Shown: in pieces, positions 1 to 60,394 of the stretch
How the letters are laid out: every line of letters starts with the position of its first letter
Position numbering within the stretch: position 1 is the stretch's first letter
Assembly (NCBI GenBank): GCA_036630325.1
Contig: CP142727.1
Coordinates: 1,178,001-1,242,000, forward strand
Origin: Vairimorpha necatrix
Taxonomy: Eukaryota
DNA: 64,000 nucleotides
Direction of reading: 5' to 3'
Made by a program: the position numbers and the translations under genes
Notes under the pieces: generated by a model
What the model was told of the DNA's origin: nothing
The model's database searches: none
The model's input: the letters and a program-made list of their open reading frames with translations, nothing else

Positions 1-1960
1 CTCGACCCATCTATTAATTCTAGCATTCTTAAAGTCGGGCTTGTTTCTTATTTCGCCCAACGCTTTATGATCAGTTTCTATTCTAAATTTCCTACCTCTT
101 AATTCATATTCAAACTTTTTAACGCCCCAAAAAACTGCGTACATTTCTTTTTCTGATATACCATAATTAACTTCCGTAACGGTAAACTTCTTAGACGCCC
201 ACTGTACTGGCACCCATTCTCCTTGATTATTTTTCTGTAACAGTACTGCGCCCATGCCTACATTACTAGCGTCAGTCCTCAACAAAAATTCTTTATCATA
301 GTCTGCTATTTGCAGCTTTCCTAGGCCTTTCAATACTTCTTTTAAATTATTAAACTCGTTTTTCATATCATCCGTCCACTTCCAATTATCATTCTTCCCT
401 TTTAAACTATCTGTCAACCTAACTGTCAATCCAGCGTAATTCTTAATAAAATCTCTGAACCAACCCGTCATTCCTAAAAATCTTCTTACATCTGACACGC
501 ATGTTGGTATCGGAAACTCTAGGGCTTCATTTTTCTTTATCTCTGACGGTATTATATCTTCTCCATTTAAAGTGACTCCCAATAATTTAACTTCCCGTTG
601 ACAAAACTGAACTTTATTTGCATTCAGCTTCAAATTGTTTTCCTTCAGTCTATTTAATACCCTTTTCACTAATTGCTCGTGTTCTCCTATCGTTCGGCTG
701 TACAACACAATATCGTCCATATACACCTCTACTCCTTTGCCTTTCATATCTCTAAAAATCCTATCCATAATTCTCTGCAATATCTGCGGGCTATTCTTAT
801 ATCCCATAACCATAGAGTTCCATTCATAAACCTTGCCATTAAAATCAAACGCCGTCTTATGTTTATCCTCCTCCTCTATCTCAATACTATAGAAGGCCTC
901 TTTTAAGTCGAAAACCGTCATATATTTTGCACCTTGTGTAGCTCTTACAACATCTCTTATGTTAGACAATCTATACTCGTCCTTTTGTACAATATCGTTC
1001 AATGCCATCAAATTACTAACCAGTCTTATCTCACCATTTGGCTTTCTGATTGACCTTATAGGATTCTCCAACTTGAATTTGACTCTCTTATCACTTTCCT
1101 TTTTAATAAATCTTCTAGATGTAGCTCTGTATCTTTTATCAACGCCTGCGGAACCATTTGTCCCTTTTTAAATACCTTCATACCCGCTTCAGTATTAATT
1201 TTACATTTTTCCAGTTTACAATATTTTATCTCCTCTTTTCCTAACTTAAAAACCTCTCCAAAACTCTTAGCATACTTATCTAAATTTAATCTGATTCTCT
1301 TACTCTCCTCTTTAACGGCATATTCTTTTTGATTTTTCTCAAATTTGACTCTAAGTCCTCTTTTTGATCTTCTAAAATCTCGCTCCTGACTTGACTCTGA
1401 TTCACTACCTACTTCCATTTTGCAACTGTTATCCTTGTTATTCTTTTTATAATAATTATCTCTATTAATCTTCAGTCTGCATTCAAACACCCTATGCCCT
1501 TGTCTATCACAATAGAAGCATCACGGTACTCTCGATTTTTGTCTTGGTTGTTCTCTACTAATTTCTTCATTTATAGTCCTAGAAATAATTTTTCTCATTT
1601 CCTCATATATCTTTTCTTTTTCCTCTACTTCCTTAATCCTTAACAATAGCTTCTTCCTTATTCCTTCAATATTTTCTTCCTTTTTGATATTTCTCACAAT
1701 AAAATCTTTTAAATCCATCGAAGCCAACTTGAACAGCTCACTCTTCCATTTCACTCTATCTACATCTCTCAAATCCAATTCATACAATATACGCTCTAAC
1801 TCCTGTAACATCTTTCTGACCACTTGGCCACAGTCCTCTCTTGTGAACTCTTCTTTAGGTATCGCCCCCATATAAGTGCTTAACATAATTGGGGTTTAAT
1901 ATTATTACTGATTATAACAGGATATAATAATACACTACATACAGCAATAAAATGTACGCC
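1..1960 (-). mobile_element. Defective Ty3/gypsy LTR retrotransposon (gag - RT - RNase H), running off the left edge of the window
   Basis: Gag starts at 1886 after AAACCCCAATT-ATG. An in-frame TGA at 1521-1523 lies just before a CFYCDRQGHRVFEC zinc knuckle (CX2CX4HX4C). There is a 1-nt frameshift near 1066 (WRIL* versus WRNPIRSIRKPNGEIRLV). RT motifs DLKEAFYSI, MGYKNSP and VYMDDI (~712-723) and RNase H motifs TDASNVGMGAVL, EKEMYAV and ETDHKAL follow. No aspartic-protease D(T/S)G motif was seen, suggesting an internal deletion. Confidence 0.92.
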
Positions 1961-2801: not shown

Positions 2802-4952
2802 CTAACTGTTTAATATTCGTATTAAATTATCATGCAATTTAATCCCAGAATTGTCATTTAAAGCTTCAAAAAGAGCATTTTCTTTTAGAATAAGTCTCAT
2901 ATTTTTTAAACATTTTTCATATTTTGATTCTTCAACTGAAATATTTTGATATTTATTATCAAAGATGATTGTTAAAGTTTGTAATGCATATTCCATAGCA
3001 TTATTTAAAATATTTTTATTTATATTTTCTCTTAGTCGTTTTAGATAAATCGTTTCCAATTCTTTTTTATATTCTAGTATTGAATCTTCTTGTATTTCCT
3101 TTTTCATTGGATATTCATTAAATTTCATATCGATAACTTTAATTACCTCGTTATTTAATATTTTTATGAAATTATTTACCACTTCCTCATCAAAAAATAA
3201 TTCATTATAGGTATTTAAAGCATCTGACATGATTTTATTTAACTCGTCGTAGATTGTGGTTAAAAGTATTATTTGGTCAATTCTTTGCCTTTCGAAGGCT
3301 TTTAGATTTCTTTTCTGTTCATATTTTCTATCTTCCTCGATGTTTTCAAAGATATTTTTTTTTATAAATCTAATGCTTTTTTCTACTTCAAATTCATTTA
3401 AGCATAAGTTTGTGATAATTTCATCTTTTGTGTAATGCTCCTTACCCTTTTCAGAAATCAATGTTGTACTGATTGATTCTGTAAATAGCATATTAATTTT
3501 ATTGATGTAATCTAAAATATCCTTTTTATGTTCTATAATTCTTCCAATGTGAGTTTTTATTTCTTTCAATATATCTATTATATCAATGTATTCATTTTCA
3601 TAATTTTTCGTCTTGAGATGATCATTGATGTATTTTAAAGATTTTAAGATAGGTTCATCAGTTACATCATTTTCATTTAAAAATTCTTCTGCTTCTAGAA
3701 TTAAAAGAATTTTCATTAAATACGATTCAGAGTCATTAAAACTCAATAAATAATCTAATAATTTTTTTGTAAGCTCATTCTTATCAATTTCTATTATGTT
3801 TTCAGTATATTCATTTATTCCCGTTATTATATCAAAATCTTCTTTTTCAATCGCTTTTATGAATAGTAGTAAATACGCAAATATTAATTTTAAAGGCGAT
3901 TTTGGTCTATTTAAAAGTCCTAAAATGAGGAATTCAACCTTATTATATCTAAAAAACAATCTGTATAGAGATTCTACGACGTTATCTGCATCAATATCTT
4001 TTATATATTTTATTATCTTAATTTTTTTTTGAAATTTTGAATAAAAATTTTTATTACGATTAGATTTATTTTCAAAATTATATAAGTTTTCATGAAATCG
4101 AATATAATTGGGGCCTATTTCAATTTTAAATGTACCTTTAGAAACCAATTCGATTTTATCTAAATAACAATCTAAATTTTTACTGCAGAATCTTGTATTA
4201 AGATATTCAATATCAACGATTTTATATAATTTAGACAATACATAAAATATTTCTAGATTCATTTCATACATATTTTCTGTTTTTATCTCCATCGATTCCT
4301 CTATTTCTTTAGTATTTAACATAAAAAAGTAAAGTATCTTGTCTATAACGAGATATAAATTAAAATAATAAGCATCATCTTTTTTTATATAATGAGTATG
4401 TGATTTATGTATATCAATCTTGCCGTTTTTGTTGTAATTATATTTTTTTATGTCGGCAAATATTTTATTTATTGACATACAATTAGCACAAATGTTTTCA
4501 TAAAAAATCTGGTTAATTCGGGGTGATACTCTTCTTTCATGATTGTCTTTTTGAATAGATTCAATGATTTCTTTGATAATGGGGTATTTTTCATATTGCG
4601 AAGCGTAATATAATAACACAAAGGAATTATTGTTTGGTGTTTTGAAGATCTCTATTAATTTACTTTCTATTTCTTCTGTTATATCTTTTATAGATTTATC
4701 AACATAATTAACATTTAGAGAAATACTTATATATTTATTGTTTTCATCATATAAAAGATCTTCAAAAGTAAAACTAATATGTTCCCTGACTTCCCATAAA
4801 TAAATATTTATTTTGATATAATTTTTTTCATAATTAAACACAAAATAATCTCTTTCTTTTATTTTCATAGTGATATTGTCTTTTAATAAGTTAAAAATTG
4901 TTTCATTAGAGATCACAAAAGTCATAAACAACAATATTGTAGAGATATTCAT
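2802..4952 (-). CDS. Lineage-specific secreted protein, 716 aa; paralogue of 34734-36941 and 44405-46714
   Basis: Long intact ORF with ACCCTC-ATG context and a hydrophobic N-terminus (MNISTILLFMTFVIS). Shares blocks with the paralogues: KIKERDY, NKSIxDITEEIE, RYNKVEFL, FDIITG, SYLMKILLILEAEEFLNE. Confidence 0.9.
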   Translation of the reverse strand: MNISTILLFMTFVISNETIFNLLKDNITMKIKERDYFVFNYEKNYIKINIYLWEVREHISFTFEDLLYDENNKYISISLNVNYVDKSIKDITEEIESKLIEIFKTPNNNSFVLLYYASQYEKYPIIKEIIESIQKDNHERRVSPRINQIFYENICANCMSINKIFADIKKYNYNKNGKIDIHKSHTHYIKKDDAYYFNLYLVIDKILYFFMLNTKEIEESMEIKTENMYEMNLEIFYVLSKLYKIVDIEYLNTRFCSKNLDCYLDKIELVSKGTFKIEIGPNYIRFHENLYNFENKSNRNKNFYSKFQKKIKIIKYIKDIDADNVVESLYRLFFRYNKVEFLILGLLNRPKSPLKLIFAYLLLFIKAIEKEDFDIITGINEYTENIIEIDKNELTKKLLDYLLSFNDSESYLMKILLILEAEEFLNENDVTDEPILKSLKYINDHLKTKNYENEYIDIIDILKEIKTHIGRIIEHKKDILDYINKINMLFTESISTTLISEKGKEHYTKDEIITNLCLNEFEVEKSIRFIKKNIFENIEEDRKYEQKRNLKAFERQRIDQIILLTTIYDELNKIMSDALNTYNELFFDEEVVNNFIKILNNEVIKVIDMKFNEYPMKKEIQEDSILEYKKELETIYLKRLRENINKNILNNAMEYALQTLTIIFDNKYQNISVEESKYEKCLKNMRLILKENALFEALNDNSGIKLHDNLIRILNS

Positions 4953-8376: not shown

Positions 8377-9462
8377 ATGAAGGAAATATTATTTACAGGG
8401 AAAATACAAATATATTCCTATGATGAACAAATCCCTACAAAAATGAAATGTGATGTAATAAAAGAAGGGGACTCGCTTATTATAAAATTAATAAACTTAA
8501 CTGACGTCTTCTCTTTTTATATTTGTACCATAAATAATGATGATTTTTATATTTTAAAAAGGGAACAAGACTTAATTGTCGATTATCATAAATTTATAGA
8601 AATAATTATCAAATTATTTCATATGGTACAAAATAACTCACTTTCGGCATATTTTCTAGATTTAAAATTTATGTTTGTAGAAAAAAATGAATTCAGGAAT
8701 ATTATAAAATTAGAACTAAAATTTAAAGAACCAACAGATTTAGACTATAAATCATACATAGGCGACTTTATAAATAGGTTAGAAAATGATAATATTAAAC
8801 TTATAAAAGAAAATAGTTTACTAAAAGATTATAATAATAATACTCTACATAGAAAAATAAGAAATTTAGAAGAAAATCAAAATGCACATATAAACAAAAT
8901 TAACATGTTAAACAAACAAACTGACGAATATAAATATAAATTAGAAAAAACTACATTAGAAATGAAAAATTTAAATAATCAAGTTTACGAATTAGAAAGA
9001 GAAAATACAAAATTAAAACTAGAAAATGATTCTAATATGAAAATCAGAGAAGATTTTTCAAATTTAAATTTAAAAAATAAAAATTTAGAAAAAGATTTAG
9101 AAGTAGCAAATGAGATAATAAAAAAAATTAGATCTGAAAATTTAGAATATAAAAATAAAATAGAAGAAATAGAAAATAATATAAAAAAGAGACATGATGA
9201 AGTAGAAAAATATGAGAATAATTTAGAAGAAATAAAAAAGAAAAATAAAATTACAGAAGAAAAATATAAAAAATTTCAAAAAGAAAATAAAGAAATAAAA
9301 AATAGAATTAAAGAGTTAGAAGTAGAAAATCAAGCATTAATAAGGAAATTAGAGAATGCTCAGAGTGTATTTAATCATTTTTCAAATAATAAAGAAATCA
9401 AAGAAAAATATAGTAGTGATAGTATTAGTGAATATTCTATACATCCTGAGGAGAAACCTTAA
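8377..9462 (+). CDS. SAS6: SAS-6-like protein (SAS-6 N-terminal head domain plus long coiled coil), 361 aa
   Basis: ACCCCGA-ATG start. DVFSFYICTINNDDFYILKREQDLIVDYHKF matches the PISA motif (DPFFLY...EEDFQSLKxQQGLLVDFxxF). VEKNEFRNIIKLELKF matches VETNPFKHLTHLSLKL, with the head-head Phe conserved. About 200 aa of heptad-rich coiled coil follow. Confidence 0.8.
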   Translation: MKEILFTGKIQIYSYDEQIPTKMKCDVIKEGDSLIIKLINLTDVFSFYICTINNDDFYILKREQDLIVDYHKFIEIIIKLFHMVQNNSLSAYFLDLKFMFVEKNEFRNIIKLELKFKEPTDLDYKSYIGDFINRLENDNIKLIKENSLLKDYNNNTLHRKIRNLEENQNAHINKINMLNKQTDEYKYKLEKTTLEMKNLNNQVYELERENTKLKLENDSNMKIREDFSNLNLKNKNLEKDLEVANEIIKKIRSENLEYKNKIEEIENNIKKRHDEVEKYENNLEEIKKKNKITEEKYKKFQKENKEIKNRIKELEVENQALIRKLENAQSVFNHFSNNKEIKEKYSSDSISEYSIHPEEKP

Positions 9463-10367: not shown

Positions 10368-11258
10368 TTAATTTATTTTTATTTGATTTATGATCTTTAT
10401 AAATTCCATTTTGTTGATCAACCTTTTGTTGTAAAACAAATATACAAATTCTAGTCTATCTTCTCTTGTAATGTGTCTTTCTATAAATTTCAATAAAAAA
10501 TCGTGTAATGATTTTTCATTCCTTAAAATTTCATTATTCCATTTCATCATTATTTTTTTATACGGACTCTCTATTTCTTTACAAAGATGATTACCTAAAT
10601 ATTCACTTAAAATTTCTGGTGGATTTTTTTGGTATTTAATGATTTTCCCTCTACTGTAATTTTTAGAAAAAAAATTATATTTCTCCAGTAGGCTTTTATT
10701 ATTTAATTTATTATCGTCATCCATATCATTTATATTATCCTTATTTTTCTTCTTAATTATAGTTGTTTTATTATCTAAATCGTATAATTTTATTTTATTA
10801 TTTTGTATATTTAAATGTCGGTTGGTTTTTTCAATTACTTTATATTTAATTGTTAAAAGTTCGTTATCGTCTTCTATTTCGATTTTATTCCCATTTACTA
10901 ATTCACATCCTGTAAAAAATATTTTAAAAATCTTTTTTGTTCTTTTAGAATACAAATAAAAATATAAAAATGTAGACTCAGTACAATTCTGAATTACAAA
11001 AGTCAAGTCTATTCTGCCCATCTTTCCCTTCTTCATATTATAAGTCATAGTTTTATAAAAACTATTTGTTGTGTAACCAATAAGTCTAAATTCTTTATAT
11101 TTCTTACTAGAACATGTGATAAGTTTAAATTTTACAATACAACAAGTAGGCAAACAAGGAAAATCGACTTTTCCTTTAAAATGCACTGACTTTTTAATAT
11201 TTCTATATAAAAATGGAGGATTAATCTTCATTTTATTCGAAAAATATGTCTCATCCAT
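10368..11258 (-). CDS. Putative miniature SUZ12/Su(z)12-like protein (N-terminal NPxFLxR motif, beta-rich middle, C-terminal VEFS-box-like region), 296 aa
   Basis: TCCCCC-ATG start. INPPFLYRNI resembles the SUZ12/EMF2 N-terminal motif (APIFLHRTL / NPLFLQRCL). The C-terminal YKKIMMKWNNEI...LKFIERH...LFYNKRLI resembles the VEFS-box EKEVMKLWNLHV...MLFVENY...SMHDFNLI. Confidence 0.6.
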   Translation of the reverse strand: MDETYFSNKMKINPPFLYRNIKKSVHFKGKVDFPCLPTCCIVKFKLITCSSKKYKEFRLIGYTTNSFYKTMTYNMKKGKMGRIDLTFVIQNCTESTFLYFYLYSKRTKKIFKIFFTGCELVNGNKIEIEDDNELLTIKYKVIEKTNRHLNIQNNKIKLYDLDNKTTIIKKKNKDNINDMDDDNKLNNKSLLEKYNFFSKNYSRGKIIKYQKNPPEILSEYLGNHLCKEIESPYKKIMMKWNNEILRNEKSLHDFLLKFIERHITREDRLEFVYLFYNKRLINKMEFIKIINQIKIN

Positions 11259-11347
11259 GGGGGATGAAAAAAATATTTTATATGATAATTAAAAACTGAA
11301 AAATTATTATTATAAAACTTATTAATTAAATAACTGTCACATTTAAT

Positions 11348-11776
11348 TTAGCGCTTTTTTTCTATTTTAGACCAGTAAAGTAAAAGTTCTTTAAATTGGA
11401 AATTTCTACATCCAATATTCGTATATTTATAATTTTCAGAACTTTGTTTGTTTATTAGATTTGCTCGTTCTGTTATATATTCTTTTTGTGGTTTTTTATT
11501 AGTTTTTTCTTTTTGTGCTGTTTTATTGTTAGTTATGTGAGGTAATTTACTATCTGATCCAGGATATTCAATATGTTTTAATCCTTTGTTTATATCTAAT
11601 TGAGTTATGGTGTTGTATGAGACATGATGTTTCTTACGTAGTACATATGAAAATACTTTATTTTTATTAGATAATGTCTCATAAAAATCTATAAGGTATT
11701 TAATGGATCTTAATTTAAAAGATCCTCCTTCTATTTTACTCAAGATTATTTCATTATTTATATTATTATCTTTCAT
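11348..11776 (-). CDS. Hypothetical protein, 142 aa
   Basis: ATCCCTTAATTA-ATG start context, intact ORF and tight spacing to the next gene. No domain recognised. Confidence 0.7.
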   Translation of the reverse strand: MKDNNINNEIILSKIEGGSFKLRSIKYLIDFYETLSNKNKVFSYVLRKKHHVSYNTITQLDINKGLKHIEYPGSDSKLPHITNNKTAQKEKTNKKPQKEYITERANLINKQSSENYKYTNIGCRNFQFKELLLYWSKIEKKR

Positions 11777-21032: not shown

Positions 21033-24000
21033 TTATGGGCCAATTAGTTCACGTAGAATTACATTTTTGACATTGCCCCCGTTTCCCCCCAACTTGACTC
21101 TCAAGTTTTCACTCTTCTTCACTCTTGACAAAGCTACGTATAATTGACCATGAGAAAATACATCCTCAGGCAAATACACTCCCACTTTGTCAAAAGACTG
21201 TCCCTGTGCTTTATGTATTGTCATAGCATATGACAATACCACAGGAAACTGTCTTCTTTTAAGTACAAACGGAAGAAGAGTGTCACTTGGCATCATGTCT
21301 ATCTTTGGTATAACAGCAAGGGTGCCCCTTCCCCTTCCTGTTATTATTTCACCTAAGATGTAATTATCTCTGAGACTTTTTATCTTCAATCTGGTCCCAT
21401 TTAATAATCCATTCTTAGGATCAATATTGCGTAACAACATCACTATTGCCCCTATCTTCAGTACTAACTTATGTGGAGGAAGTCCTGATGGCTGTTGCAT
21501 GTTCAAGAACTCAAGAGGAAATCTCAGTTGTTCTTCGATATCCTCTGATTCTATAGCATCAGAACTCACATATACCCTAGAAGATCCATTAAGTAGGTTT
21601 AACACTTTGGCATTCAATTCATTTGCATGTTCATTTTTGCTCGTTAAGATAATCTTATCAAACAAAGAATCATCACCTGCTTCAATTTTGATTGTTCCAA
21701 AAATGCTATCGACTATGTCTCCTTCTTCAAGATATTCTTTGGGTATCTCCACACATCCTTTACTATCTCTAGTACGCCCCTCACCTATATCTAACAACCA
21801 CTTATTAAACTCCAATTGATTGTAAGATCTCATATTCGTTTCAAGCTTCAGTACACAGACATGTACCCAAAGCCTTGAACTAATTAATGAGTTCTCGATG
21901 ATATCATTTGGAGTACCCTTCATTACAATGGTTGATGTCTGTCTAAAATCACCACCCAACAATAGAGTTTTCCCTCCAAAGATATCATCATTGTTACAGA
22001 GTCTTTTAAGCACCTCATCTATTGCGTTCAATGCATGTTTTGACATCATTGAAACTTCATCTATTAGCAATAAAGAGGCCTTTATTATTTTCTCTGCTTC
22101 GGGAGTATTTCTTTTTAATCTAGATACGCTGGTCTCTGTCAAAGGAACAGGAAGTTTCATACAACTATGCATTGTTCTTCCATCCTTTAATAAATCTGCA
22201 GCAATACCTGTGGTTGCCATCTGTATTGAAGATTTTTTATTCTTGTTTAAATACTCGGTCAGGACATTATATAGATATGTCTTCCCCGATCCTGCTGGTC
22301 CATCTAAAAAGAATAAATTGCCCTTTTTATCAATATTATCTGTTATTTTATCAAAAGCATCCCTCTGCTTTGCATTTAAAGAGGAGATCATCTGATCTAG
22401 ATCTTTTCCATTATCAGAGATAGTTTTTGCCTTCTCGATATAGTTAATCGGCTCATCTAAACCCAGAGCATTTAGACTCCATCCATGAGCATTAACTATA
22501 TCTTTTAATCTACTAATAACTTCGTCTCTACTATTCTGATCTAGATCTTCAGACATATCTCCAAGATACTTATCAAAGAGTTCTTTGGTATTTTTTGGCT
22601 TATTAAAAGCACAAATATATCCAAACAATGCTCTTATTATTGCTGGGGATTCGGTTGCTACTGCCTCATCCAAAGTCCTTTCCCATTCTTTGTCATCTTG
22701 AAGAAGTCCTCTTTCTTCAACCGCTTCTGCAAAAGAACTATAAACTATACCATTTACAGTTCTCAAATCATCATATGATCTAGCCCCCTTTACATTGATC
22801 AATAGGACTCTGAGGCTAAATCTTTCCTTCTCTGTAGGAGATACAGAATAAAGTCTAGTAATTATCTTGCTGTACTTATTCTTTCTCCTTATCCATTCTC
22901 CCCTTTTATATGTATAGTGATAGGGTATCTCACTATATGCAAATTGATTTGCCTCTTCATCAACTTCATTCAACTTGAAGTAGGCTAAAAGAGGGGTCTG
23001 TCTAAGATCAGATAATCTAACAGCTTCCTCTTCTTTCCCTTCTTCGAAAGTGATCAAGTGTTCTTGTGGAAGATGCACAGGAAGTCTATGGATCTTATGA
23101 GATCTCCCATGCATCTTGTATTCCATTAATCTCCAGGTAGCCTCTGGTGCTGAAACATATCTGGAATTCACAAAATGATCAATTTCATTGTTGTCGGTTA
23201 TTCTCATTTCTGCACAATCAAATCCCTTGTAAATATACTTGAAAATATACTTTACTGACTTGATAGAAGTACAAACTTCTACATTGATATGACAGTTGTA
23301 TTTTTCAAGCAAATAAGCATTATAGGGGACCACGTTAGCATTAGTAACAATGTTTCCCCTTACATTGTACTCGGTCCCTCTTATTCTTCGGTATTCAGGA
23401 TATCCGTCATTATTTATCTTTGTTTCAAAGTTATATTCTTTGGGATATTCTTTCGTGCAGACACCATTTTCCATGCATGGACTTGTCAAGTTACTTAGTC
23501 CACATGGTCCATGAATCATATGTTTTGTTACACAGTTGTGTAACATCTCATTGTCCATGGGTGATGGTATTTCTGCACTCACATACTTATCTATTCTTTC
23601 TTCATCCCGAATCTTATCCTTTAACATTATCAATATGTGAGCATGAGGAAGTCCACGTTTCTGAAACTCAATAGAATAGACATGAGCCTCAACTTCCCCA
23701 AATACTCTTCCTGACAAAATCTCCTCCATCATGCTTTTTAATTTTAAGTTGAAGACCTTTGCTACCAAATCAGGCCTATCAACTGCAGTTTGTCCCTCAA
23801 ATAGATTCTCCTTTATCTCCTTCCAATTTGGATTGCAAGTCATAGTAATGAAAAGATCGGGCTTTCCGAAATTTCTTACAATTGACATTGCATCATGGTA
23901 TCTCTCTCTCATATTTCTTGGAGATCCTTGGAAACTTGATGGTAAAATTACAGGCTTAGCATTACTTTCTATTCCATTATTTACATAATCTACTAAGCCT

Positions 24001-25337
24001 TTGTAAAGATCTACTCTCAACTTCTTCTGATTTAACTTTATGAAGTTTAAGTTATTTGCTTCAACTTGTAGATATGAATCTACAATCCATTGTTGAAATA
24101 ACTTTCCTCCATAAAGCAAAGGGTTGAATCTATCTTTTCTTATGGATATCTGTGCTACTTTGTATTGTAACAAAGATATCTTCTGTGATTCCCCATGATA
24201 AGACTCAATCCTTAAATTTGCATTCCACCCAGCTTCCCCATATGGATAGAACAAAGTATATGTCATGGGATCTAGATGGGGACTTAAAACATCCAAATGT
24301 AAATTATCAGAACTAAGACCCTTGCTATATACTTTAATGTCCCTCTCAAATGGTGGTTCTCCATTTGGATCAGTGAAAATCATTGCGATTTCACTTGTAG
24401 AGGGAGCGTTATATCTTCTCTGATCTCTTTCTAAATTCTTATTAAAGACCATAGAAATGTCTTTAACTTCTTTCCCCATTTCCTTTTGCTCCTTTACTAT
24501 TTCAGACATATTTTTATACGCATTGGAATATGGATTAGCAGATCTTATAAATCCATCTAATTTGCTCATGATATATATATCACAATTTCTATTAGATGGA
24601 TTCGTCATTCTTTGGGCATTTGCCATATCACTATCTACTACATATAATTGAGCATACTTCTTTGGTGTATTAGAGTCCATATTATTTACATTATAAGTGT
24701 TATGATACACTTGACCATGTATTTTAAATACATATGGTCCATTGGATACAGTTTCTATTTGAGCACCAAGAGAAGCAAAAGAAAGAGCAGCATTGTAGGA
24801 CCTAATATTGTCTCTGAAGTTTTTTGCATCTTTATTTTTTCCTATATATAAATTCTTAATGTCATCTGGGAAGTCTCTTGTTCTTTGTAATTTAACTTTC
24901 CCAAAATGACAGCAGCTTTTGTATAATCCATTGCTGCTTGCTTCTCCAGCAAAATGTAATGCACCACAAAAGCCACATTCTTCTTTCAGATCTCCACAAT
25001 AATGTTCGGCATGGTTTCTGCTAGTAATTCTGCATGCTACATCTAGTTTTTCTGTCAAGGTTTCTATTGTTGTGTTGTCTGCTAATCTAGCTGTTTTTTC
25101 TGTGTTGTTTGTTGGATTAAGAATTGTTTTGTTTTCGCCAGAGAAACTGAATATAAAATTCCTTTTTTTTGTTTCACCGACATTTGTTTTTTTATTTTTT
25201 GTGTTATGTACAGAGGCATTGGCCCCATAGAAAATAACATTGTCATTTTCAGTATTACTACATATCTCCTGAGAGATAGTGATAGTTGCTTTTGGTTGTT
25301 CACTAAAATCGCAATTTGTTTGATTTTTCGTAAGCAT
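21033..25337 (-). CDS. Helitron RepHel transposase (Zn-finger-like region, HUH/Y2 Rep nuclease, Pif1-family SF1 helicase), 1434 aa
   Basis: CGFCGALHF...CCHFG; LPSSFQGSPR; PDLFITMTCNPNW; HUH motif EFQKRGLPHAHIL; KYIFKYIYKG; Walker A GPAGSGKT; LLIDEVSM; GGDFRQ; GLLNGTR; RRQFPVVLSYAMTIHKAQGQS; HGQLYVALSRV. TACCCCCATT-ATG start. Confidence 0.97.
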   Translation of the reverse strand: MLTKNQTNCDFSEQPKATITISQEICSNTENDNVIFYGANASVHNTKNKKTNVGETKKRNFIFSFSGENKTILNPTNNTEKTARLADNTTIETLTEKLDVACRITSRNHAEHYCGDLKEECGFCGALHFAGEASSNGLYKSCCHFGKVKLQRTRDFPDDIKNLYIGKNKDAKNFRDNIRSYNAALSFASLGAQIETVSNGPYVFKIHGQVYHNTYNVNNMDSNTPKKYAQLYVVDSDMANAQRMTNPSNRNCDIYIMSKLDGFIRSANPYSNAYKNMSEIVKEQKEMGKEVKDISMVFNKNLERDQRRYNAPSTSEIAMIFTDPNGEPPFERDIKVYSKGLSSDNLHLDVLSPHLDPMTYTLFYPYGEAGWNANLRIESYHGESQKISLLQYKVAQISIRKDRFNPLLYGGKLFQQWIVDSYLQVEANNLNFIKLNQKKLRVDLYKGLVDYVNNGIESNAKPVILPSSFQGSPRNMRERYHDAMSIVRNFGKPDLFITMTCNPNWKEIKENLFEGQTAVDRPDLVAKVFNLKLKSMMEEILSGRVFGEVEAHVYSIEFQKRGLPHAHILIMLKDKIRDEERIDKYVSAEIPSPMDNEMLHNCVTKHMIHGPCGLSNLTSPCMENGVCTKEYPKEYNFETKINNDGYPEYRRIRGTEYNVRGNIVTNANVVPYNAYLLEKYNCHINVEVCTSIKSVKYIFKYIYKGFDCAEMRITDNNEIDHFVNSRYVSAPEATWRLMEYKMHGRSHKIHRLPVHLPQEHLITFEEGKEEEAVRLSDLRQTPLLAYFKLNEVDEEANQFAYSEIPYHYTYKRGEWIRRKNKYSKIITRLYSVSPTEKERFSLRVLLINVKGARSYDDLRTVNGIVYSSFAEAVEERGLLQDDKEWERTLDEAVATESPAIIRALFGYICAFNKPKNTKELFDKYLGDMSEDLDQNSRDEVISRLKDIVNAHGWSLNALGLDEPINYIEKAKTISDNGKDLDQMISSLNAKQRDAFDKITDNIDKKGNLFFLDGPAGSGKTYLYNVLTEYLNKNKKSSIQMATTGIAADLLKDGRTMHSCMKLPVPLTETSVSRLKRNTPEAEKIIKASLLLIDEVSMMSKHALNAIDEVLKRLCNNDDIFGGKTLLLGGDFRQTSTIVMKGTPNDIIENSLISSRLWVHVCVLKLETNMRSYNQLEFNKWLLDIGEGRTRDSKGCVEIPKEYLEEGDIVDSIFGTIKIEAGDDSLFDKIILTSKNEHANELNAKVLNLLNGSSRVYVSSDAIESEDIEEQLRFPLEFLNMQQPSGLPPHKLVLKIGAIVMLLRNIDPKNGLLNGTRLKIKSLRDNYILGEIITGRGRGTLAVIPKIDMMPSDTLLPFVLKRRQFPVVLSYAMTIHKAQGQSFDKVGVYLPEDVFSHGQLYVALSRVKKSENLRVKLGGNGGNVKNVILRELIGP

Positions 25338-34733: not shown

Positions 34734-36941
34734 ATGATTACACCAAAATTTTTAATCTCATTTGGATTAATGGCGTCCAATCAGAATGTTTTTAATAATA
34801 TACAAAAAACGATACTTAGTAAAATACATAAAAGAGAATACGTTGTATTTGATTCATCTGCTTCTTACACTGTAATGGATATATGGATGTATGACTTTGA
34901 TAATACTATATCTTGCACGTTTACTGATGGATTTAGCGCTAGAAGAAAAAATGACGAGGTTGAAAATTTTAAAATATGTTATGAAAATAAATCTATTTGT
35001 GATATAACCGAAGAAATTGAAGCATATGTTAAAAAAATTTTACATTTTCCAGATAATAATCCCATCATACTAATATATCATAATTGTTATTGTGAGAATT
35101 ATTCCATCATGAAGAATGTTATAAATAATATTAAAAAAATAAATAGTGGAAGAAGAAAGAAAAAGAAAGGGAGTGAAATTTATTATGAAATCATTGCAGA
35201 ATCTGATTCTCACTTCAATACAATGTATAAGCATTTAAAAAAAACAAACACCAATGCTAGACATGATTCAGATCTTCCAAACTCCGCGGTTGATTATTTT
35301 AAATGCAATAATAATGACACTTATTATTTTAGAATTCGTATCATTGTATCGAAACTTTGCTATTTGTTTGAATTAAATATTAACGAACTCGATGTCAAAG
35401 AATTAAATTCCTTGGTTAAAATAAAAAAAGAAAATTATAAAAAAAATGACAAGGAAATACTTATCAATTTAATTAGCTTATTTAAAATACATGATCTTGA
35501 AAACATAAGCGAATCCCTTAAATTTGAGCATTGTACATTTAAAACAAATAAGATAGAAATAAAGTATTATAATTATTTTAAAGTAGAACTAAAAAATAAT
35601 GCTTTAATCTTTCAAGAAAATTCTAATGTACATTACAAATATTTAAAAAATAAGGAAAATCAGGGACATGAAAAAACATATATAGAAGAAAAAAACTTTC
35701 GTGATTTTAAAAATTTTTTAGATAAGGTTTATGAGATTAAAAACATAGACAATGGAAAAGGTGTAGAATTTTTTTACAGATTAATAAATAGACATAATAA
35801 AGTCGAGTTCCTAGTACTGAGAATTTTAAATAAACCAGGATCGGCTTTAAATTTGTTATTAGGATATCTTCTATTATTCGAAACCTTTATCCAAATGTAT
35901 GAATTTGATATCATTACAGGACAAGTTCGAGATGGACAAACTCAAATAGAAAATAGACAGGTCGTAATCACAAAATATATTAGTGGGAAAATATCGAAAA
36001 CAACATATGCAAAATCTTACTTAATGAAAATTTGTTTACTTCTTGAAGCAGAAAATTTTATCAACGAAGACGATCTAAGTCAAGATCTATTTTTCAAATC
36101 TCTAAAAAATATAAGTGTTCTAATGAATTCGAATTATGATGAAAATAATATTTTTATTGTGACGAAGATATTACAAGAGGTTCAAAATAAATATATCGAT
36201 GAAATCACAAGATATAAAACTGAAATTTTAGAAAATTTGTGTGATATCATCTCGAATTTAACATCTTTAAAAAGCACAGAATTCATAAATAGACAATTTG
36301 GCGATGGGATTATAACGAATATTAAGACTAATGAATTTGAAACAAGAGAAAATGTAAATCTTTTTATGAAAATCTTATTAAAAAATTCCAAACAAGATAA
36401 AAAATACGCAGAAGTGAGAAAAATAAATGAGAAGATTATGAAATATATCAAAGAAATCGCTGATAAAATAATATTATGCAATGAATCTAAACTAATAAGT
36501 TCAAAAGCTTTAGAAAAAAACAACATCAATTTATTAGTAGACGAAATTCGACAAAATCTCATTAAAGACTTAGTTAACGAAGGGATGAAAATGTTTGACA
36601 AAAAAATTCAAAGTTATGTTATTGAAGATGAGTTAATCAAGGACACGGTAAATAAGATAAAAAATGAATTTAAAAAAGGATTTACTCAGGAAATAAGAAA
36701 AAATGTAGTTGAAAATATAACAAATAATTTGGGGAGGTACTTGGTTAATCTGTTTTTTATACTTCTTGAGCCTAAGGCTAAAAATGAATTAAGTATCAAA
36801 TCTACGCAATGTAAACAAATGTTTGTAAATATACGGCCTATGTTAAGTAAAAATGTTTTAATGATATTAAATATGGAAATTGGTGGAAGGATTCATAATA
36901 TTTTAGTTGAAAAATTAGAAATATGTATAAATCAAAAATAA
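34734..36941 (+). CDS. Lineage-specific secreted protein, 735 aa; paralogue of 2802-4952 and 44405-46714
   Basis: ATCCCTA-ATG start and hydrophobic N-terminus. Shared blocks: RHNKVEFLVLRILNKPGSALNL, FDIITG and SYLMKICLLLEAENFINE. Confidence 0.9.
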   Translation: MITPKFLISFGLMASNQNVFNNIQKTILSKIHKREYVVFDSSASYTVMDIWMYDFDNTISCTFTDGFSARRKNDEVENFKICYENKSICDITEEIEAYVKKILHFPDNNPIILIYHNCYCENYSIMKNVINNIKKINSGRRKKKKGSEIYYEIIAESDSHFNTMYKHLKKTNTNARHDSDLPNSAVDYFKCNNNDTYYFRIRIIVSKLCYLFELNINELDVKELNSLVKIKKENYKKNDKEILINLISLFKIHDLENISESLKFEHCTFKTNKIEIKYYNYFKVELKNNALIFQENSNVHYKYLKNKENQGHEKTYIEEKNFRDFKNFLDKVYEIKNIDNGKGVEFFYRLINRHNKVEFLVLRILNKPGSALNLLLGYLLLFETFIQMYEFDIITGQVRDGQTQIENRQVVITKYISGKISKTTYAKSYLMKICLLLEAENFINEDDLSQDLFFKSLKNISVLMNSNYDENNIFIVTKILQEVQNKYIDEITRYKTEILENLCDIISNLTSLKSTEFINRQFGDGIITNIKTNEFETRENVNLFMKILLKNSKQDKKYAEVRKINEKIMKYIKEIADKIILCNESKLISSKALEKNNINLLVDEIRQNLIKDLVNEGMKMFDKKIQSYVIEDELIKDTVNKIKNEFKKGFTQEIRKNVVENITNNLGRYLVNLFFILLEPKAKNELSIKSTQCKQMFVNIRPMLSKNVLMILNMEIGGRIHNILVEKLEICINQK

Positions 36942-44404: not shown

Positions 44405-46714
44405 ATGAATATAATTAAATTAGTTTTGTCATTTTTAATTGTACAAGGATCGGATATAGTGTATAATAATCTGAAAACAGCTTTTTTAAATAAAATAGCT
44501 AAAAGAGATTATTGTATTTTGAGTAATGAAAGTAAATATTTATTTGTAATATTTAATTTTCACTTGCGCAAAAATATAATAAATGCAAAATTTAAGATAA
44601 AGACTTTTCCTTGGTATCAAGAGGAGTTTGAATGTTTGAACGTTGATATGGAAAACAAATCCATTGAAACAATCTTAAACGAATTCGAAGAAAAATTATA
44701 TATTATATACAAAAATAATGCAGCAGATTCTATAATATTAATTTATGATCAGAGTTGTTGTAGATTAAAACCAATTTATAAAGAAATTATCAAACATATG
44801 AAAATAAATAATGACGAACGAAAAGAAATGCATATACGTCATGATATCATTTATAAATATATAATTGATTCAAATGCTCTGTGGTATAGAATGACTAAAA
44901 TCTTAGAAATCGATTTGAGAGTATCTGATGGCGATCTAATCGAATATAAAATTCCGCTAATGATTGAAGAAACTTTAGAGGGAAATTATATAGTTATTAC
45001 TATTCAACTAAATAATATATATTATTGCTTTGAAATAGATGTTAAAGAACTTGACGAAAATGAAATTTTATTACTAATAGAATTTGATTTTCCACATGAA
45101 AATGAACGTCATAAAATGATTAGTAGGTTGTTTTGTGATTTGTATGCTTTTGTTAAAACTTGTGATCTTGGTTACTTTTATCAATCAGGCTTTTCAGTTT
45201 GTAAACCTAACGAGATTAAATTATCCGGAAATATCATACAAATTGAGATAAAATGTGATAAAATATGTTTTACTATAAACTTTTGTAATTTTAACTATAT
45301 TTTAAAAAAGAATGTAGATATGTGTGAAAATGAATTTAACATTTATCAAAAAACTTATCTAGAATTTCAAGAAGTTTTTAGAAAAATTTATGCAATAGAA
45401 CAAATAGACGAGGCAAAAAAAATTATTGAATTATTTTTTAGGTTGATTAGGAACAAAAACCAAGTAATATATTTAGTAAATAGAATTTTAGATAAAACAG
45501 GCACTGCTCTGAATATAATTTTTAAACATCTTATAGACTGTCAGGATATATTCAAAAAAAACGAACTTGGATTTTCAATATTAAAAGAACAGATCAATGA
45601 AAATGAAAGGAAATTGATCATTGAAGTACTACAGGATATATTCGGCGACTATGGATCATCAAGTACTTATCTAATTAAAATCTGTTTATTCTTAGAAGCC
45701 GAAGAGCTTTTAAATAAAAACGAGGTAGGCGATGCACCAATATTTGGAATTTTGAAAAGAATTACAGAATTAGTTATTTCACAGAAAAATTCAACGAACA
45801 TCACATCGAGCGAAGAAAATTCTGATTTGTGTAAAGCATATCAATATTTATTAAAAAATTGTCTTGCAGATATGGAAACAAATAAAAGAAATATTTGGAG
45901 GATTGTATATAAATTTGCGGCATTGTTTACAGGTTTAGAAAAGACTAAATGCAAGGATGATTATTATTATTATTATTATATCGTAAAAAGTAATGAGATT
46001 GCAAAATTGTGCCTCAGAGAGAAAGAAGTTACTAAAACTTACGATTTGATAAGTAAAAAAATATTAAAAAAACATTCAGAAGATATCAAAAAAGAAAATA
46101 TAAAGTATTTATATCGTATCAAAAATATTATCGAAAGTATAAACAAATCAAAAATGAGCGAAGAAGAAATAAAGATTAAAAGATATGAAATGACAACACT
46201 CTTAAATAGAATAAATATAAAAATATATAGCTCGAATTTAATACCCCTAAAAAATGAAGCTTTAAATGCAAATATTGAAAATTTGTATGATGACAAGACA
46301 AGAACTAAATTTGAAAATGATTTAAAAGAAAGGGGAAGAGAAGAAATTAAAAATATTATTATAAGTGATAAAGAAACTAAAGATTTGATTGAAATTATAA
46401 AACAATATGACAAAAATATTTTAAACGAATACAATAATACCTTTTTGACTAACTTTTTTGCTGAATTGAGTGTATGTATTGAAAAAAATGTGAAAAAATG
46501 TTCTGAAAGAGATTTGCCGAAAGTTTTTGTTTCCTTTTTTAAAGATTATTTAAATAATGATTTAAACAAACAAGAAGCTTGCGAAAATATTCTTAAAAAG
46601 ATAATAAACATATTAAGTGAAAATGGCATATTAAAAAGTTTAAAGCAATCAGAAATGACACTACATGATGATTTAGTAAAATCGTTAGAAGAAAAAGATC
46701 TTAAAGAAAAATAA
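44405..46714 (+). CDS. Lineage-specific secreted protein, 769 aa; paralogue of 2802-4952 and 34734-36941
   Basis: GCCCCT-ATG start and signal-like MNIIKLVLSFLIVQGS. Shared blocks: KIAKRDY, NKSIETI, RILDKTGTALN, TYLIKICLFLEAEELLN and LHDDLVK. Confidence 0.9.
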   Translation: MNIIKLVLSFLIVQGSDIVYNNLKTAFLNKIAKRDYCILSNESKYLFVIFNFHLRKNIINAKFKIKTFPWYQEEFECLNVDMENKSIETILNEFEEKLYIIYKNNAADSIILIYDQSCCRLKPIYKEIIKHMKINNDERKEMHIRHDIIYKYIIDSNALWYRMTKILEIDLRVSDGDLIEYKIPLMIEETLEGNYIVITIQLNNIYYCFEIDVKELDENEILLLIEFDFPHENERHKMISRLFCDLYAFVKTCDLGYFYQSGFSVCKPNEIKLSGNIIQIEIKCDKICFTINFCNFNYILKKNVDMCENEFNIYQKTYLEFQEVFRKIYAIEQIDEAKKIIELFFRLIRNKNQVIYLVNRILDKTGTALNIIFKHLIDCQDIFKKNELGFSILKEQINENERKLIIEVLQDIFGDYGSSSTYLIKICLFLEAEELLNKNEVGDAPIFGILKRITELVISQKNSTNITSSEENSDLCKAYQYLLKNCLADMETNKRNIWRIVYKFAALFTGLEKTKCKDDYYYYYYIVKSNEIAKLCLREKEVTKTYDLISKKILKKHSEDIKKENIKYLYRIKNIIESINKSKMSEEEIKIKRYEMTTLLNRINIKIYSSNLIPLKNEALNANIENLYDDKTRTKFENDLKERGREEIKNIIISDKETKDLIEIIKQYDKNILNEYNNTFLTNFFAELSVCIEKNVKKCSERDLPKVFVSFFKDYLNNDLNKQEACENILKKIINILSENGILKSLKQSEMTLHDDLVKSLEEKDLKEK

Positions 46715-57026: not shown

Positions 57027-59867
57027 TTATTGAGTCAAATATCCAATTTCACATAAACTACAAATCTCCCCTTCTTGACTTCGTACATAACAAAATGAAC
57101 ACACTTTCCCCTCACTGAAAAAATCTAAAATATCATAGCAGAATATTCCCTCGGGAATATCAAACATATCTTCGGGGTCCTCAAGCTTGAGAGCCTTCCT
57201 GATTATTTTGGGCTTATTTTCTTCACTAAAAACAAGGGCCTGTTTTTTGGCTTCTTTATAATTCCCATTCTTCAGGCATACACTCACATATTCCTGCTGG
57301 GCCAGTTTCTTATGCTCAGGCTTCAAATTTAGGGATGCAAAATATTTGGCAAAAATTATCTGCTTTCTTGGGTCTTCTTCCTTTTTACGGTACAATTGTG
57401 TATTGAGGCCAGAAATATATTCGCCCAAATTAAACCTCAAATCTTCACTGGATTCTTGAGTCGCCAGGGTGTAGAGGCAATTTCTGAATATTTCCAAGGC
57501 CTCAATAAAATTCCCCAGTGTAACAAGTCCATACGCCTTTTCTAAGGATGAATTTATATCAACTTTCTCGTATTTGATATTCTCTAGTAAATCTTTATTG
57601 TAATCTTGAATATTCATTTTCTCTAAATGTTCATTTAATTCCTTAAATCTTATTTTTTCTTTACCTCCAACTAATTTCTCTTGATTATTACTATCATTTA
57701 ATTTTTTAGTATCATTTTTGCCTTTCTTATTTAATTTTTTAGTATCAATTTTGCTTTTCTCATTATTATATTGTAAATAGAAATATTTTGTATCTTCTAA
57801 ATATAATCTTATTATTTTCTCTGTTTGTTCATCACAAATTTCTATCAATTCTTTTAATTTCTCTTTTTTATTAGTACAAATATATAGTATAAATAATTCA
57901 TACCACTCTTGTAAAAATATTAAACATTTCTCAGAAATCTCAAAATTCGCATTTTCTATTGCCACTTGACATAATTTCTCATACATCTGATGGTCTTGTT
58001 CTTCTTCACAATATTTAAAACATTCTTCAAATTTCCCTGTACTCAAGCAGAGCTCAAATCTCTGCTTTATATTTTTTATATAAGGCAAGGCTATGTCACC
58101 CTTGTGCTTTTTTATTAAAAAAGACAAGGGACTAAGTCCAGGCAGAGATCCTGATTCTATAATATCTGTAATAATATTCATATCTCCATTAATTATGACT
58201 TGTTTCTTGAAATTTATCTCTGTAATGTCAACTTCCATACTTTCTATACCTTCGTCAGATATGAAAAATATCAAGTCGTCTTTATAAAAGAAAGGGTAAA
58301 TGACAGAATCTAAGCTGATCAAAACACCCTGTTCAGAAAAAAGATATTTCAAATGTTTAGAAGTCGCGTATATGAAAATATCTTCATAGAAGAAACCTCC
58401 TCTAATATTTACTATTTCATTTTCTTGATTTATCAAATTCATATTCTCGTCATACAAAGCGATCTTATTCTTGGAAATAAAGGCGTATTCTTTTCCTAAT
58501 TCGGAAATGTAAACATTTTCACAGGGAAATCCCAAATTCACAGAGTCGACTAAACCTTCTCTCGTGTATCTCAATAATAAATTATTATTTACTACGAAGA
58601 AATATTTCTCATTACCAAATAATAAATCCCCTGCACAAGTCTCAAAAGACCTTAAAATATTTTGATCTAAATCTTTTATGATAATTTCCTTATCTTTCTT
58701 TTCTACTATCACTAAATCTTCATATAAAAATATTCCTTGTCCAGATCCCTGAACGATCTTCTTATTCTTCTCATAAATTTCATATCCTTGATTATGTCTA
58801 ATTAATAAAATATTCTCTAAAGAATTAATAGACTTAATTTCTCCTTCTGCTTTGCAGACTTTTCTCTCTGTGTTCAAATCTGAAAAATAGAAAAAATTAT
58901 TTTTATAATAAAAACATCCTTTCTTATTCGCTGATACTAATTTTGGTTCAGAATATTCTAAAATTTCAAATCCATTATCATGTCCTAATACAAAAAACCC
59001 ATTTTTACATTTTATTGTCCAATATCTTGTATCTAGAAAATGCTTAGTAGATTTTTTAGTCTTTAAATCGAAAATACAAAATAAACCATCTTCTCCTACG
59101 CTACATACAAAATTATTATAAAGAACAGAACCACTAACACATCCTTGATGAGCGAAAACACTTTCCCTTTCTAATAATTCATGTCTATAATCCCAGATTT
59201 TTACTTCTCTGTCATCTCCACCAGATAAAATTAAAATTTCATTATTTTCAAAATAAATTTCTATGAAATTTACACCTCTATCATGACCATGTACAATTTG
59301 TTTGACTATGACGTCAGGGACGAATTTGTTTGTTTTTTCAAACAAATTCTTACAGTCCCAAATTCTAATAGAATTATCTAAAGACCCACTTATAATAGTA
59401 TTCTCATCTAGAAATTTCGCACTCATTACATAATGAGAATGTCCTGTAGCAGTCGTTAGACATTTCCCAGTCATAAAATTCCAAATTTTTATTGTTTGAT
59501 CATCTGAAGCACTAATAATCCATGGTTTTGTAGGATGAAAATCGCAACTCCTTATAAAATCAGTGTGTCCTTTAAAAATTTTTAGTAATTTTCTTTTTGT
59601 ATAATCCCACATTCTTATTAATTTGTCATCTCCACAACTTACAAAGAAATCTCCATGAGGATGAAAACAGACAGATCTTATAGATCCTTGTTCAAGTTTA
59701 TTTGTATCTAAGAATTCGAAGATACAAGCATTTGAGTTGTAATCCCAGGCTTGAATTCTACCATCATGTAGACCAATGATAAAGATTGGTTTTACGGGGT
59801 GGAAATCTACAGATTTTACCCGTGTAGTTTGTTGACTCAAAAGGACTGTAATTTTTTTATCGATCAT
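57027..59867 (-). CDS. COP1: Coatomer subunit alpha (alpha-COP)
   Basis: RVKSVDFHPVKP, WD40 repeats (GHTDFIR...FHPTKPWIISASDDQTIKIWN; GHSHYVM; GHDRGVN) and terminal CSFC...CSLCEIG typical of alpha-COP. ATG at 59867 is preceded by GAAGGGCAAG; the TTG start at 59927 in the ORF track is unlikely. Confidence 0.95.
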   Translation of the reverse strand: MIDKKITVLLSQQTTRVKSVDFHPVKPIFIIGLHDGRIQAWDYNSNACIFEFLDTNKLEQGSIRSVCFHPHGDFFVSCGDDKLIRMWDYTKRKLLKIFKGHTDFIRSCDFHPTKPWIISASDDQTIKIWNFMTGKCLTTATGHSHYVMSAKFLDENTIISGSLDNSIRIWDCKNLFEKTNKFVPDVIVKQIVHGHDRGVNFIEIYFENNEILILSGGDDREVKIWDYRHELLERESVFAHQGCVSGSVLYNNFVCSVGEDGLFCIFDLKTKKSTKHFLDTRYWTIKCKNGFFVLGHDNGFEILEYSEPKLVSANKKGCFYYKNNFFYFSDLNTERKVCKAEGEIKSINSLENILLIRHNQGYEIYEKNKKIVQGSGQGIFLYEDLVIVEKKDKEIIIKDLDQNILRSFETCAGDLLFGNEKYFFVVNNNLLLRYTREGLVDSVNLGFPCENVYISELGKEYAFISKNKIALYDENMNLINQENEIVNIRGGFFYEDIFIYATSKHLKYLFSEQGVLISLDSVIYPFFYKDDLIFFISDEGIESMEVDITEINFKKQVIINGDMNIITDIIESGSLPGLSPLSFLIKKHKGDIALPYIKNIKQRFELCLSTGKFEECFKYCEEEQDHQMYEKLCQVAIENANFEISEKCLIFLQEWYELFILYICTNKKEKLKELIEICDEQTEKIIRLYLEDTKYFYLQYNNEKSKIDTKKLNKKGKNDTKKLNDSNNQEKLVGGKEKIRFKELNEHLEKMNIQDYNKDLLENIKYEKVDINSSLEKAYGLVTLGNFIEALEIFRNCLYTLATQESSEDLRFNLGEYISGLNTQLYRKKEEDPRKQIIFAKYFASLNLKPEHKKLAQQEYVSVCLKNGNYKEAKKQALVFSEENKPKIIRKALKLEDPEDMFDIPEGIFCYDILDFFSEGKVCSFCYVRSQEGEICSLCEIGYLTQ

Positions 59868-60394
59868 CTTGCCCTTCTTGGGAAAATTATTTATAAAGAA
59901 AAACAACATCCAATAAAAAAGAAACAAAAAGACATTTCACATGTTAATCCAGGAAAATGAACCATAAATTTCTTAACTAGGAACAAAGAGACTTATTTTA
60001 TCTAATTAGATTATAAAATAAAATATCATTTTCCTATTTTGTGCAAATGTTTTTCTTCGTCCTCAATTTACATTAAACAAAATCCATTTTAGAAGCATCT
60101 TATTTTACATGGTTACCTGGTTGTATGCTTTATTTATATTGAGCACAATCTCTTCATGATATTCTTGACTGCCTCTTCTATTATTAATCTACTTAACACA
60201 TTTATGTATACTTTATTATAGTAATAATGAGATCATATTTCATAAACTTTTCACCATGAAATACTTTTCTTTTTTTCTGTATTTCATGCAATTTTTTTCT
60301 TATTTATGCTTTTTTGCATAAATAAATTTGACAGTTTGTTTCAAAAAAGAAACAAACTATTTTATACATAAATAAAAACTTTTTACCCATAAAA

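What the first reader, a model, noticed from the sequence alone, without database searches (positions are those of the whole stretch)
10368..11258. Miniature SUZ12-like protein hinting at a minimal PRC2 in a microsporidian
Seen: N-terminal NPPFLYRNI, a beta-rich middle, an N/D-rich linker and a C-terminal K-x-x-M-x-x-W-N...F(I/V)ExH...L-I pattern, all in only 296 aa. Known: SUZ12/EMF2 proteins have an N-terminal PxFLxR segment, a C2 domain, a zinc finger and a C-terminal VEFS box that binds EZH2 and EED; typical orthologues exceed 600 aa. Inference: two SUZ12-like motifs in the correct order suggest a highly reduced orthologue lacking the zinc finger. That would imply H3K27 methylation, possibly silencing TE-rich regions like this one.
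Basis: inference. Interest (0 to 1): 0.7.

Follow-up and report, generated by a model that had tools for sequence, protein, structure and literature searches.

The report
Miniature SUZ12-like protein in a microsporidian
A 296-residue protein of a Nosema/Vairimorpha-type parasite looks like a half-size, very divergent version of SUZ12, the scaffold of the Polycomb gene-silencing enzyme, but its partner proteins could not be looked for here.

Summary
It belongs to a small family of 288-296 aa proteins. One member is an uncharacterised Vairimorpha ceranae protein.

For SUZ12:
- The published RBBP4/7-binding motif FLxRx[VL] sits at residues 16-21 in all 4 members.
- A C2 beta-sandwich follows it.

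Against:
- There is no Pfam VEFS-Box hit and no PDB sequence hit.
- The model is of low confidence, and the VEFS match is absent from a single-sequence model.
- There is no zinc finger.

No whole genome is held, so E(z) and EED could not be sought. One paper lists E(z)-type SET genes in Nosema apis and other microsporidia.

Verdict: a probable divergent, miniature SUZ12 (about 0.6). PRC2 activity is untested. This scan earlier noted a 381-aa SUZ12-like protein in Encephalitozoon, on other DNA.

The parts
10368..11258 (-). Whole gene: 296 codons plus stop. Protein P0001.
   Evidence: Near-identical DNA is held by contigs of two public runs from two studies.
11259..11263 (-). CCCCC run directly upstream of the ATG, a start-associated CCC signal.
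   Evidence: 13 of 14 long ORFs in the window have a CCC within 40 nt upstream. Its role as a microsporidian transcription/start signal is recalled from the literature and was not checked here.
11196..11222 (-). Residues 13-21, NPPFLYRNI. It contains FLxRx[I] at 16-21, which matches the SUZ12 RBBP4/7-binding (WDB1) motif FLxRx[VL].
   Evidence: Motif definition from PMC9253717. P14, P15, F16, L17 and R19 are invariant in 4 of 4 members.
10809..11153 (-). Residues 36-150: C2-type beta-sandwich.
10629..10808 (-). Residues 151-210: poorly conserved N/D/K-rich linker, with a 14-residue insertion unique to this species. It ends in a conserved NF-x-F-x-S patch (F196 and S198 invariant). No Cys or His, so no zinc finger.
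   Evidence: mean pairwise identity 0.26 for 151-193; 18 of 43 columns hold gaps. pLDDT under 50.
10371..10628 (-). Residues 211-296: five-helix C-terminal domain, VEFS-like.

Best explanation
The gene encodes a highly divergent, miniaturised SUZ12-type scaffold for a reduced Polycomb repressive complex 2. Its three modules stand in the same order as in SUZ12.

(1) An N-terminal PPFLxRx[ILF] peptide would dock on the RbAp46/48-type WD40 histone chaperone.
(2) A C2 beta-sandwich would form the body of the targeting lobe.
(3) A roughly 85-residue helical VEFS-like tail would wrap around the E(z) methyltransferase and EED and hold the SET domain in its active form, allowing H3K27 methylation.

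The zinc finger and the long disordered inserts of animal SUZ12 have been lost.

Shown here: the motif, its conservation, the C2 fold, and the VEFS-like predicted fold.

Inferred: binding to any partner, the existence of E(z) and EED in this genome, and the histone mark.
For: - Motif: FLYRNI, FLFRRL, FLKRNL and FLKRNF lie at the N-terminus of 4 of 4 members. The published SUZ12/MES-3 RBBP4/7 site is FLxRx[VL].
- C2 fold directly after the motif, found on two independent models.
- Long SUZ12 chains align over both domains in the right order: 8eqv_B, 7ksr_C and 7kso_C, model 37-296 to chain 154-684. Foldseek ranks 7ksr_C 12th and 8eqv_B 17th of 350,542 chains.
- E(z)-type SET genes are reported in Nosema apis, Antonospora, Pseudoloma, Trachipleistophora and Vavraia (PMC9692433: text, Table S1, columns as I read the tab positions). 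A SUZ12 partner is therefore expected in this clade.
Against: - No Pfam VEFS-Box hit at E<=10 for any of the 4 members or for their C-terminal parts.
- No PDB sequence hit to SUZ12 by phmmer or by profile.
- The AF2 model has mean pLDDT 52.6 and rests on 4 sequences.
- The Atlas feature search on residues 205-296 found nothing usable.
- The C2 part matches generic C2 domains better than SUZ12's own.
- No zinc finger.
- No longer or intermediate relatives link the family to canonical SUZ12.
- Partners were not examined.
Confidence: 0.6

Rival explanations
1. A clade-specific C2-domain protein whose helical tail is unrelated to VEFS, for example a lipid- or protein-binding adaptor. On this reading the SUZ12 resemblance is a coincidence of a short motif plus a low-confidence helical model.
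For: - The C2 fold is the only robust result on both models.
- All sequence-profile tests for VEFS are negative.
- The Atlas C-terminal search was blank.
Against: - Three independent features point to one family in the right order.
- The hypothesis was made from sequence before any structure search.
- FL.R.[VLIF] near the N-terminus arises in 0.2% of shuffles.
Confidence: 0.27
2. A true SUZ12 descendant that no longer serves H3K27 methylation. It would scaffold the clade's sole SET enzyme with another specificity (the Encephalitozoon enzyme is labelled 'Clr4/EZH2' and read as H3K9 in PMC10158259), or act only with the RbAp46/48 chaperone.
For: - The Encephalitozoon genome paper lists 'Histone-lysine N-methyltransferase Clr4/EZH2' and argues for H3K9me (passages seen).
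- Nosema apis has a single SET gene in Table S1 of PMC9692433.
- The residue-level equivalents of the activity-stimulating SUZ12 E610/K611 could not be confirmed.
Against: - PMC9692433 places the Nosema apis, Vavraia and other microsporidian enzymes in the E(z) group.
- VEFS-E(z) pairing is otherwise tied to H3K27 (established knowledge, not tested here).
Confidence: 0.1
3. A chance ORF in AT-rich, TE-rich DNA that is not a gene.
For: No RNA run was available. The region is gene-poor.
Against: - Orthologues of the same length exist in at least three other sources, with domain-wise conservation and a variable linker.
- A named V. ceranae gene model exists.
- A CCC start signal is present.
Confidence: 0.01

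Closest known systems
Human SUZ12 / Drosophila Su(z)12 (PRC2 scaffold; PDB 5HYN, 4W2R, 6C23, 8EQV)
   Different: - 296 aa, against about 739 aa (human length recalled).
- No C2H2 zinc finger.
- No detectable ZnB or WDB2 elements.
- No Pfam VEFS-Box hit.
- The aligned VEFS part covers only chain residues 586-684.
C. elegans MES-3 (PMC9253717)
   Different: MES-3 is 754 aa and its membership of PRC2 is biochemically proven. Here nothing is known of partners, and the protein is less than half that size.
'Other VEFS-Box proteins' and divergent Su(z)12-like subunits of fungi and ciliates (Sharaf et al. 2022, PMC9018016)
   Same: Non-canonical proteins that lack SUZ12's zinc finger yet serve, or are proposed to serve, as the VEFS partner of E(z) (passages).
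   Different: Those were found by the Pfam VEFS-Box profile, which this family does not hit. No microsporidian name occurs in that paper's text or in its 12 supplements held as text.
381-aa SUZ12-like protein of Encephalitozoon intestinalis
   Same: A half-size, uncharacterised microsporidian SUZ12 candidate.
   Different: That note describes a zinc finger plus a VEFS box. The present family has no finger, is shorter, and was not linked to it by exhaustive phmmer. I could not compare the two sequences.
Generic C2 domains (cPLA2, extended synaptotagmin, perforin, Munc13)
   Different: No Pfam C2 hit. Sequence identity is 3-12%. Those proteins have no FLxR motif or VEFS-like tail.

Membership tests
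SUZ12 / Su(z)12 / EMF2 (PRC2 scaffold) | Sequence match to the Pfam VEFS-Box profile (PF09733) | tested here: not met
   hmmscan at E<=10 gives no VEFS-Box row for P0001, for the 3 members of A1, or for the 4 C-terminal parts of A3. HMMER filters drop most hits above E of about 0.1. Profile-profile comparison (HHpred) was not possible.
SUZ12 / Su(z)12 / EMF2 (PRC2 scaffold) | C-terminal domain with the VEFS fold | tested here: inconclusive
SUZ12 / Su(z)12 / EMF2 (PRC2 scaffold) | RBBP4/7-binding motif FLxRx[VL] N-terminal to the C2 domain (PMC9253717) | tested here: met
   FLFRRL and FLKRNL fit strictly (2 of 4). FLYRNI (this protein) and FLKRNF carry I or F at the last place. F, L and R are invariant. 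The motif lies 15-20 residues before the first C2 strand.
SUZ12 / Su(z)12 / EMF2 (PRC2 scaffold) | C2 domain between the N-terminal motif and VEFS | tested here: met
   C2 fold on both models. Long SUZ12 chains align from chain residue 154/155 onward. No specific closeness to SUZ12's own C2 was shown.
SUZ12 / Su(z)12 / EMF2 (PRC2 scaffold) | C2H2 zinc finger between C2 and VEFS | tested here: not met
   P0001 has no Cys or His between residues 119 and 223, and no conserved Cys/His pattern exists in the linker of the 4 members.
SUZ12 / Su(z)12 / EMF2 (PRC2 scaffold) | Invariant activity-stimulating pair (human E610/K611) and assembly residues F639, I647, L652, F656 | not testable with these tools
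   The structure tools give ranges, not residue pairs, and no SUZ12 sequence could be obtained. By recalled motifs, K/R234, W240-N241, F258, F271 and F275 would be the equivalents and the acidic residue would be missing. This was not verified.
SUZ12 / Su(z)12 / EMF2 (PRC2 scaffold) | E(z) and EED/ESC encoded in the same genome and bound by the protein | not testable with these tools
   No whole genome is held. There is no SET or EED-like ORF in the window. Literature only: E(z)-type genes in Nosema apis and four other microsporidia.
C2 domain (Pfam PF00168 clan) | Eight-stranded C2 beta-sandwich | tested here: met

The most novel reading that the evidence does not exclude
This is the smallest SUZ12 yet seen, at 296 aa. 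It would show that a PRC2 scaffold needs only a chaperone-docking peptide, a C2 domain and about 85 residues of VEFS. With a single E(z)-type SET enzyme, it would form the main or only histone-methyl silencing system of TE-laden Nosema/Vairimorpha genomes, including the honeybee pathogen V. ceranae. I found no microsporidian PRC2 scaffold in print.
Probability: 0.35. Interest if true: 0.7.

Novelty: new variant of a known kind. Interest (0 to 1): 0.52.

Why it matters
If it holds, Polycomb-type silencing survives in one of the most reduced eukaryotic lineages. It would use a scaffold less than half the usual size and without the zinc finger, which defines a natural minimal SUZ12.

It would give a name and a testable role to an 'uncharacterized protein' of Vairimorpha ceranae. 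It would also bear on whether the lone microsporidian SET enzyme is an E(z) (H3K27) or a Clr4 (H3K9) type, on which two papers differ.

It illustrates as well that published PRC2 surveys, which omitted microsporidia and rely on the VEFS-Box profile, would miss such proteins.

Tried and rejected
- Pfam on P0001, on the A1 members and on the C-terminal parts: no VEFS-Box. Only sub-threshold noise appeared: Crinkler E 0.38, Ctf19_RWD2 E 0.003-0.007 in 1 member, CdiA_C_tRNase and PDZ_1.
- PDB sequence searches: none, or chance rows only. These were PsiD-like E 1.8, LINE-1 ORF1p E 1.1, and glucuronyl hydrolase E 0.42.
- Word-index search for longer forms (519-2000 aa): none at E<=10, which is weak evidence.
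- Near-length searches found only the 4 family members.
- The exhaustive phmmer found 3 proteins at E<=0.001, the query included.
- Metagenome scan: 134 pattern matches, none a relative.
- Atlas on residues 205-296: no usable feature hit. Structure rows were integrase-, phasin- and SHOCT-type clusters, all under the bar.
- Single-sequence AF2 model: no SUZ12 row in either top-50 list.
- Sequencing runs: no RNA holder listed. Contigs of two runs carry the gene with 3 single-base differences in total, too few for any test of selection.
- Earlier-notes look-ups by genome words and by sequence: nothing.
- Complex prediction was not used, because no partner sequence (E(z), EED or RbAp48) could be obtained.
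- Literature: no paper with the V. ceranae locus tags. No paper on the parasite's own H3K27me3 was found.

Full report
**Observation.** The window is AT-rich (GC 0.22-0.36) and gene-poor. It carries retroelement and Helitron ORFs. Earlier notes of this scan call the genome a Nosema/Vairimorpha-type microsporidian. An ATG-to-stop ORF of 296 codons lies at 10368..11258 on the minus strand.

- NPPFLYRNI at residues 13-21.
- A strand-rich middle.
- An N/D/K-rich linker.
- K234..M237..W240-N241, F258-I-E-x-H262 and L280-I281.

The ATG is directly preceded by CCCCC. 13 of the 14 long ORFs of the window have a CCC within 40 nt upstream, against about 4 CCC per kb overall. That fits the start-associated CCC signal I recall for microsporidia, which I did not check in print.

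**Family.** An exhaustive phmmer over 1.84 billion representatives found 3 proteins at E<=0.001, the query included: P0002 (293 aa, 37% identity, E 6e-43) and P0003 (288 aa, E 1e-26). A profile search added P0004 (293 aa). P0002's cluster holds two named records, both 'hypothetical/uncharacterized protein' of Vairimorpha ceranae.

No longer form was found among 519-2000 aa proteins, which is weak evidence. No metagenome relative was found either.

In the 4-sequence alignment A2 the invariant residues cluster in three places:
- P14-P15-F16-L17-x-R19.
- The block C92-x-E-S-T-x-L-Y-F-Y-L-Y103.
- The C-terminus: M237, W240, N241, D253, F258, F271, Y273-L-F275 and I281.

The linker 151-193 is the least conserved part, with mean pairwise identity 0.26 and gaps in 18 of 43 columns. 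The C2 region stands at 0.44. This is the pattern of a real two-domain protein.

**Sequence-level tests of the SUZ12 idea are all negative.**
- Pfam gives no VEFS-Box row at E<=10 for the protein, its relatives or their C-terminal parts.
- phmmer and profile searches of PDB chain sequences give nothing or chance rows.
- The Atlas feature search on residues 205-296 was blank.

**Structure-level tests.** The single-sequence AF2 model is poor (pLDDT 45). The model from A2 reaches a mean of 52.6. Its sandwich is at about 60-70 and the five C-terminal helices at 58-80.

The middle domain is a C2 fold on both models:
- Foldseek gives probability 1.00 to cPLA2, E-Syt and other C2 domains.
- The protein-language-model neighbours of the whole protein are also C2-type clusters, at 0.79-0.83. 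That is a lead only.

That these chains are SUZ12 is my inference. Chains of 122-132 residues numbered about 586-684 in PRC2 entries fit the SUZ12 VEFS positions quoted in PMC9253717. EED is too short for that numbering (recalled).

Results against this reading:
- Z stays under the tool's caution line of 8.
- The model is of low confidence.

[quoted passage not shown] The four family members have FLYRNI, FLFRRL, FLKRNL and FLKRNF at residues 16-21 (25-30 in P0004), just before the C2 domain. Composition-preserving shuffles put FL.R.[VLIF] in the first 35 residues 0.2% of the time.

**What is missing.** P0001 has no Cys or His between residues 119 and 223, so the C2H2 finger of SUZ12 is absent.

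By motifs recalled from human SUZ12, which I did not verify with any tool, K/R234 would match K611 and the acidic E610 would be lost. W240-N241, F258-[IV]-E, F271 and F275 would match the W-N, F639-V-E, L652 and F656 positions. This register is compatible with the ranges the aligner reports. It remains a lead.

**Partners.** No whole genome is held, and the window has no SET or EED-like ORF.

From the literature:
- PMC9692433 states that E(z)-type genes occur in some Microsporidia (passage).
- By my reading of its tab positions, Table S1 of that paper puts one Group-2 (E(z)) gene each in Nosema apis, Antonospora locustae, Pseudoloma, Trachipleistophora and Vavraia, and none in Encephalitozoon or Nematocida.
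- PMC10158259 lists a 'Clr4/EZH2' methyltransferase in Encephalitozoon and reads it as H3K9 (passages).
- The two large PRC2 surveys, PMC9018016 and PMC10638273, name no microsporidian in the text passages or supplements that I searched.
- I found no paper on a microsporidian SUZ12.

This scan's own earlier notes, which are unchecked, report an E(z)-EED gene pair and a 381-aa SUZ12-like protein in Encephalitozoon intestinalis. One of those notes is marked 'part of it fell'.

By the Pfam criterion the protein is not a VEFS-Box family member. It is better described as SUZ12-like, in the same evidential class as MES-3 was before biochemistry. PRC2 assembly, H3K27 methylation and any role in silencing the surrounding transposons are inferred, not shown.

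Noticed in passing
window 8377-9462 (+): The neighbouring gene encodes a 361-aa protein with a SAS-6 N-terminal head followed by a long coiled coil (Pfam SAS-6_N E 1.5e-15, 58 bits; PDB SAS-6 heads at E 1e-4). It is odd for an organism without centrioles, but PMC3697468 says SAS-6 in the microsporidian E. cuniculi was 'previously described'.
   Followed up: partly
window, 40 nt upstream of 14 long ORFs: 13 of 14 long ORFs have a CCC run shortly before the ATG, 12 of them within about 16 nt. The background is about 4 CCC per kb. The COPA-like ORF (57027-59909, minus) is the exception, so its true start may lie elsewhere.
   Followed up: partly
P0001 residues 39, 49, 92, 118 and 148 (window about 10815-11144, minus): Four cysteines and one histidine inside the C2 domain are invariant in all 4 family members. 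They could form a structural metal site or a disulfide pair. This was not examined.
   Followed up: no
window 11348-11776 (-): A 142-aa ORF lies 90 bp upstream on the same strand, with its own CCC signal. It has no family hit above noise (best: YLDV-IL18BP-like, E 0.005, below cut-off).
   Followed up: no
window 21033-25337 (-) and 1-1008 (-): An apparently intact 1434-aa Helitron Rep/helicase ORF (Helitron_like_N E 3e-62, PIF1 E 4e-55), and a Ty3/gypsy RT-RNase H ORF that runs off the window's start.
   Followed up: no
window 25.3-28.5, 29.3-34.7, 36.9-44.4 and 46.7-51.7 kb: Long stretches without any ATG ORF of 90 aa or more, unusual for the normally compact microsporidian gene layout. They may be decayed repeats.
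   Followed up: no
window 10556, 10638, 10704: Contigs of two public runs carry the gene with three single-base differences. By my hand translation these are K235E, a silent change in I207, and L185F in the linker. That is too few to say anything about selection.
   Followed up: partly
window 2802-4952 (-), 34734-36941 (+), 44405-46714 (+): Three long ORFs (716, 735 and 769 aa) with CCC start signals have no Pfam hit at E<=0.01.
   Followed up: no
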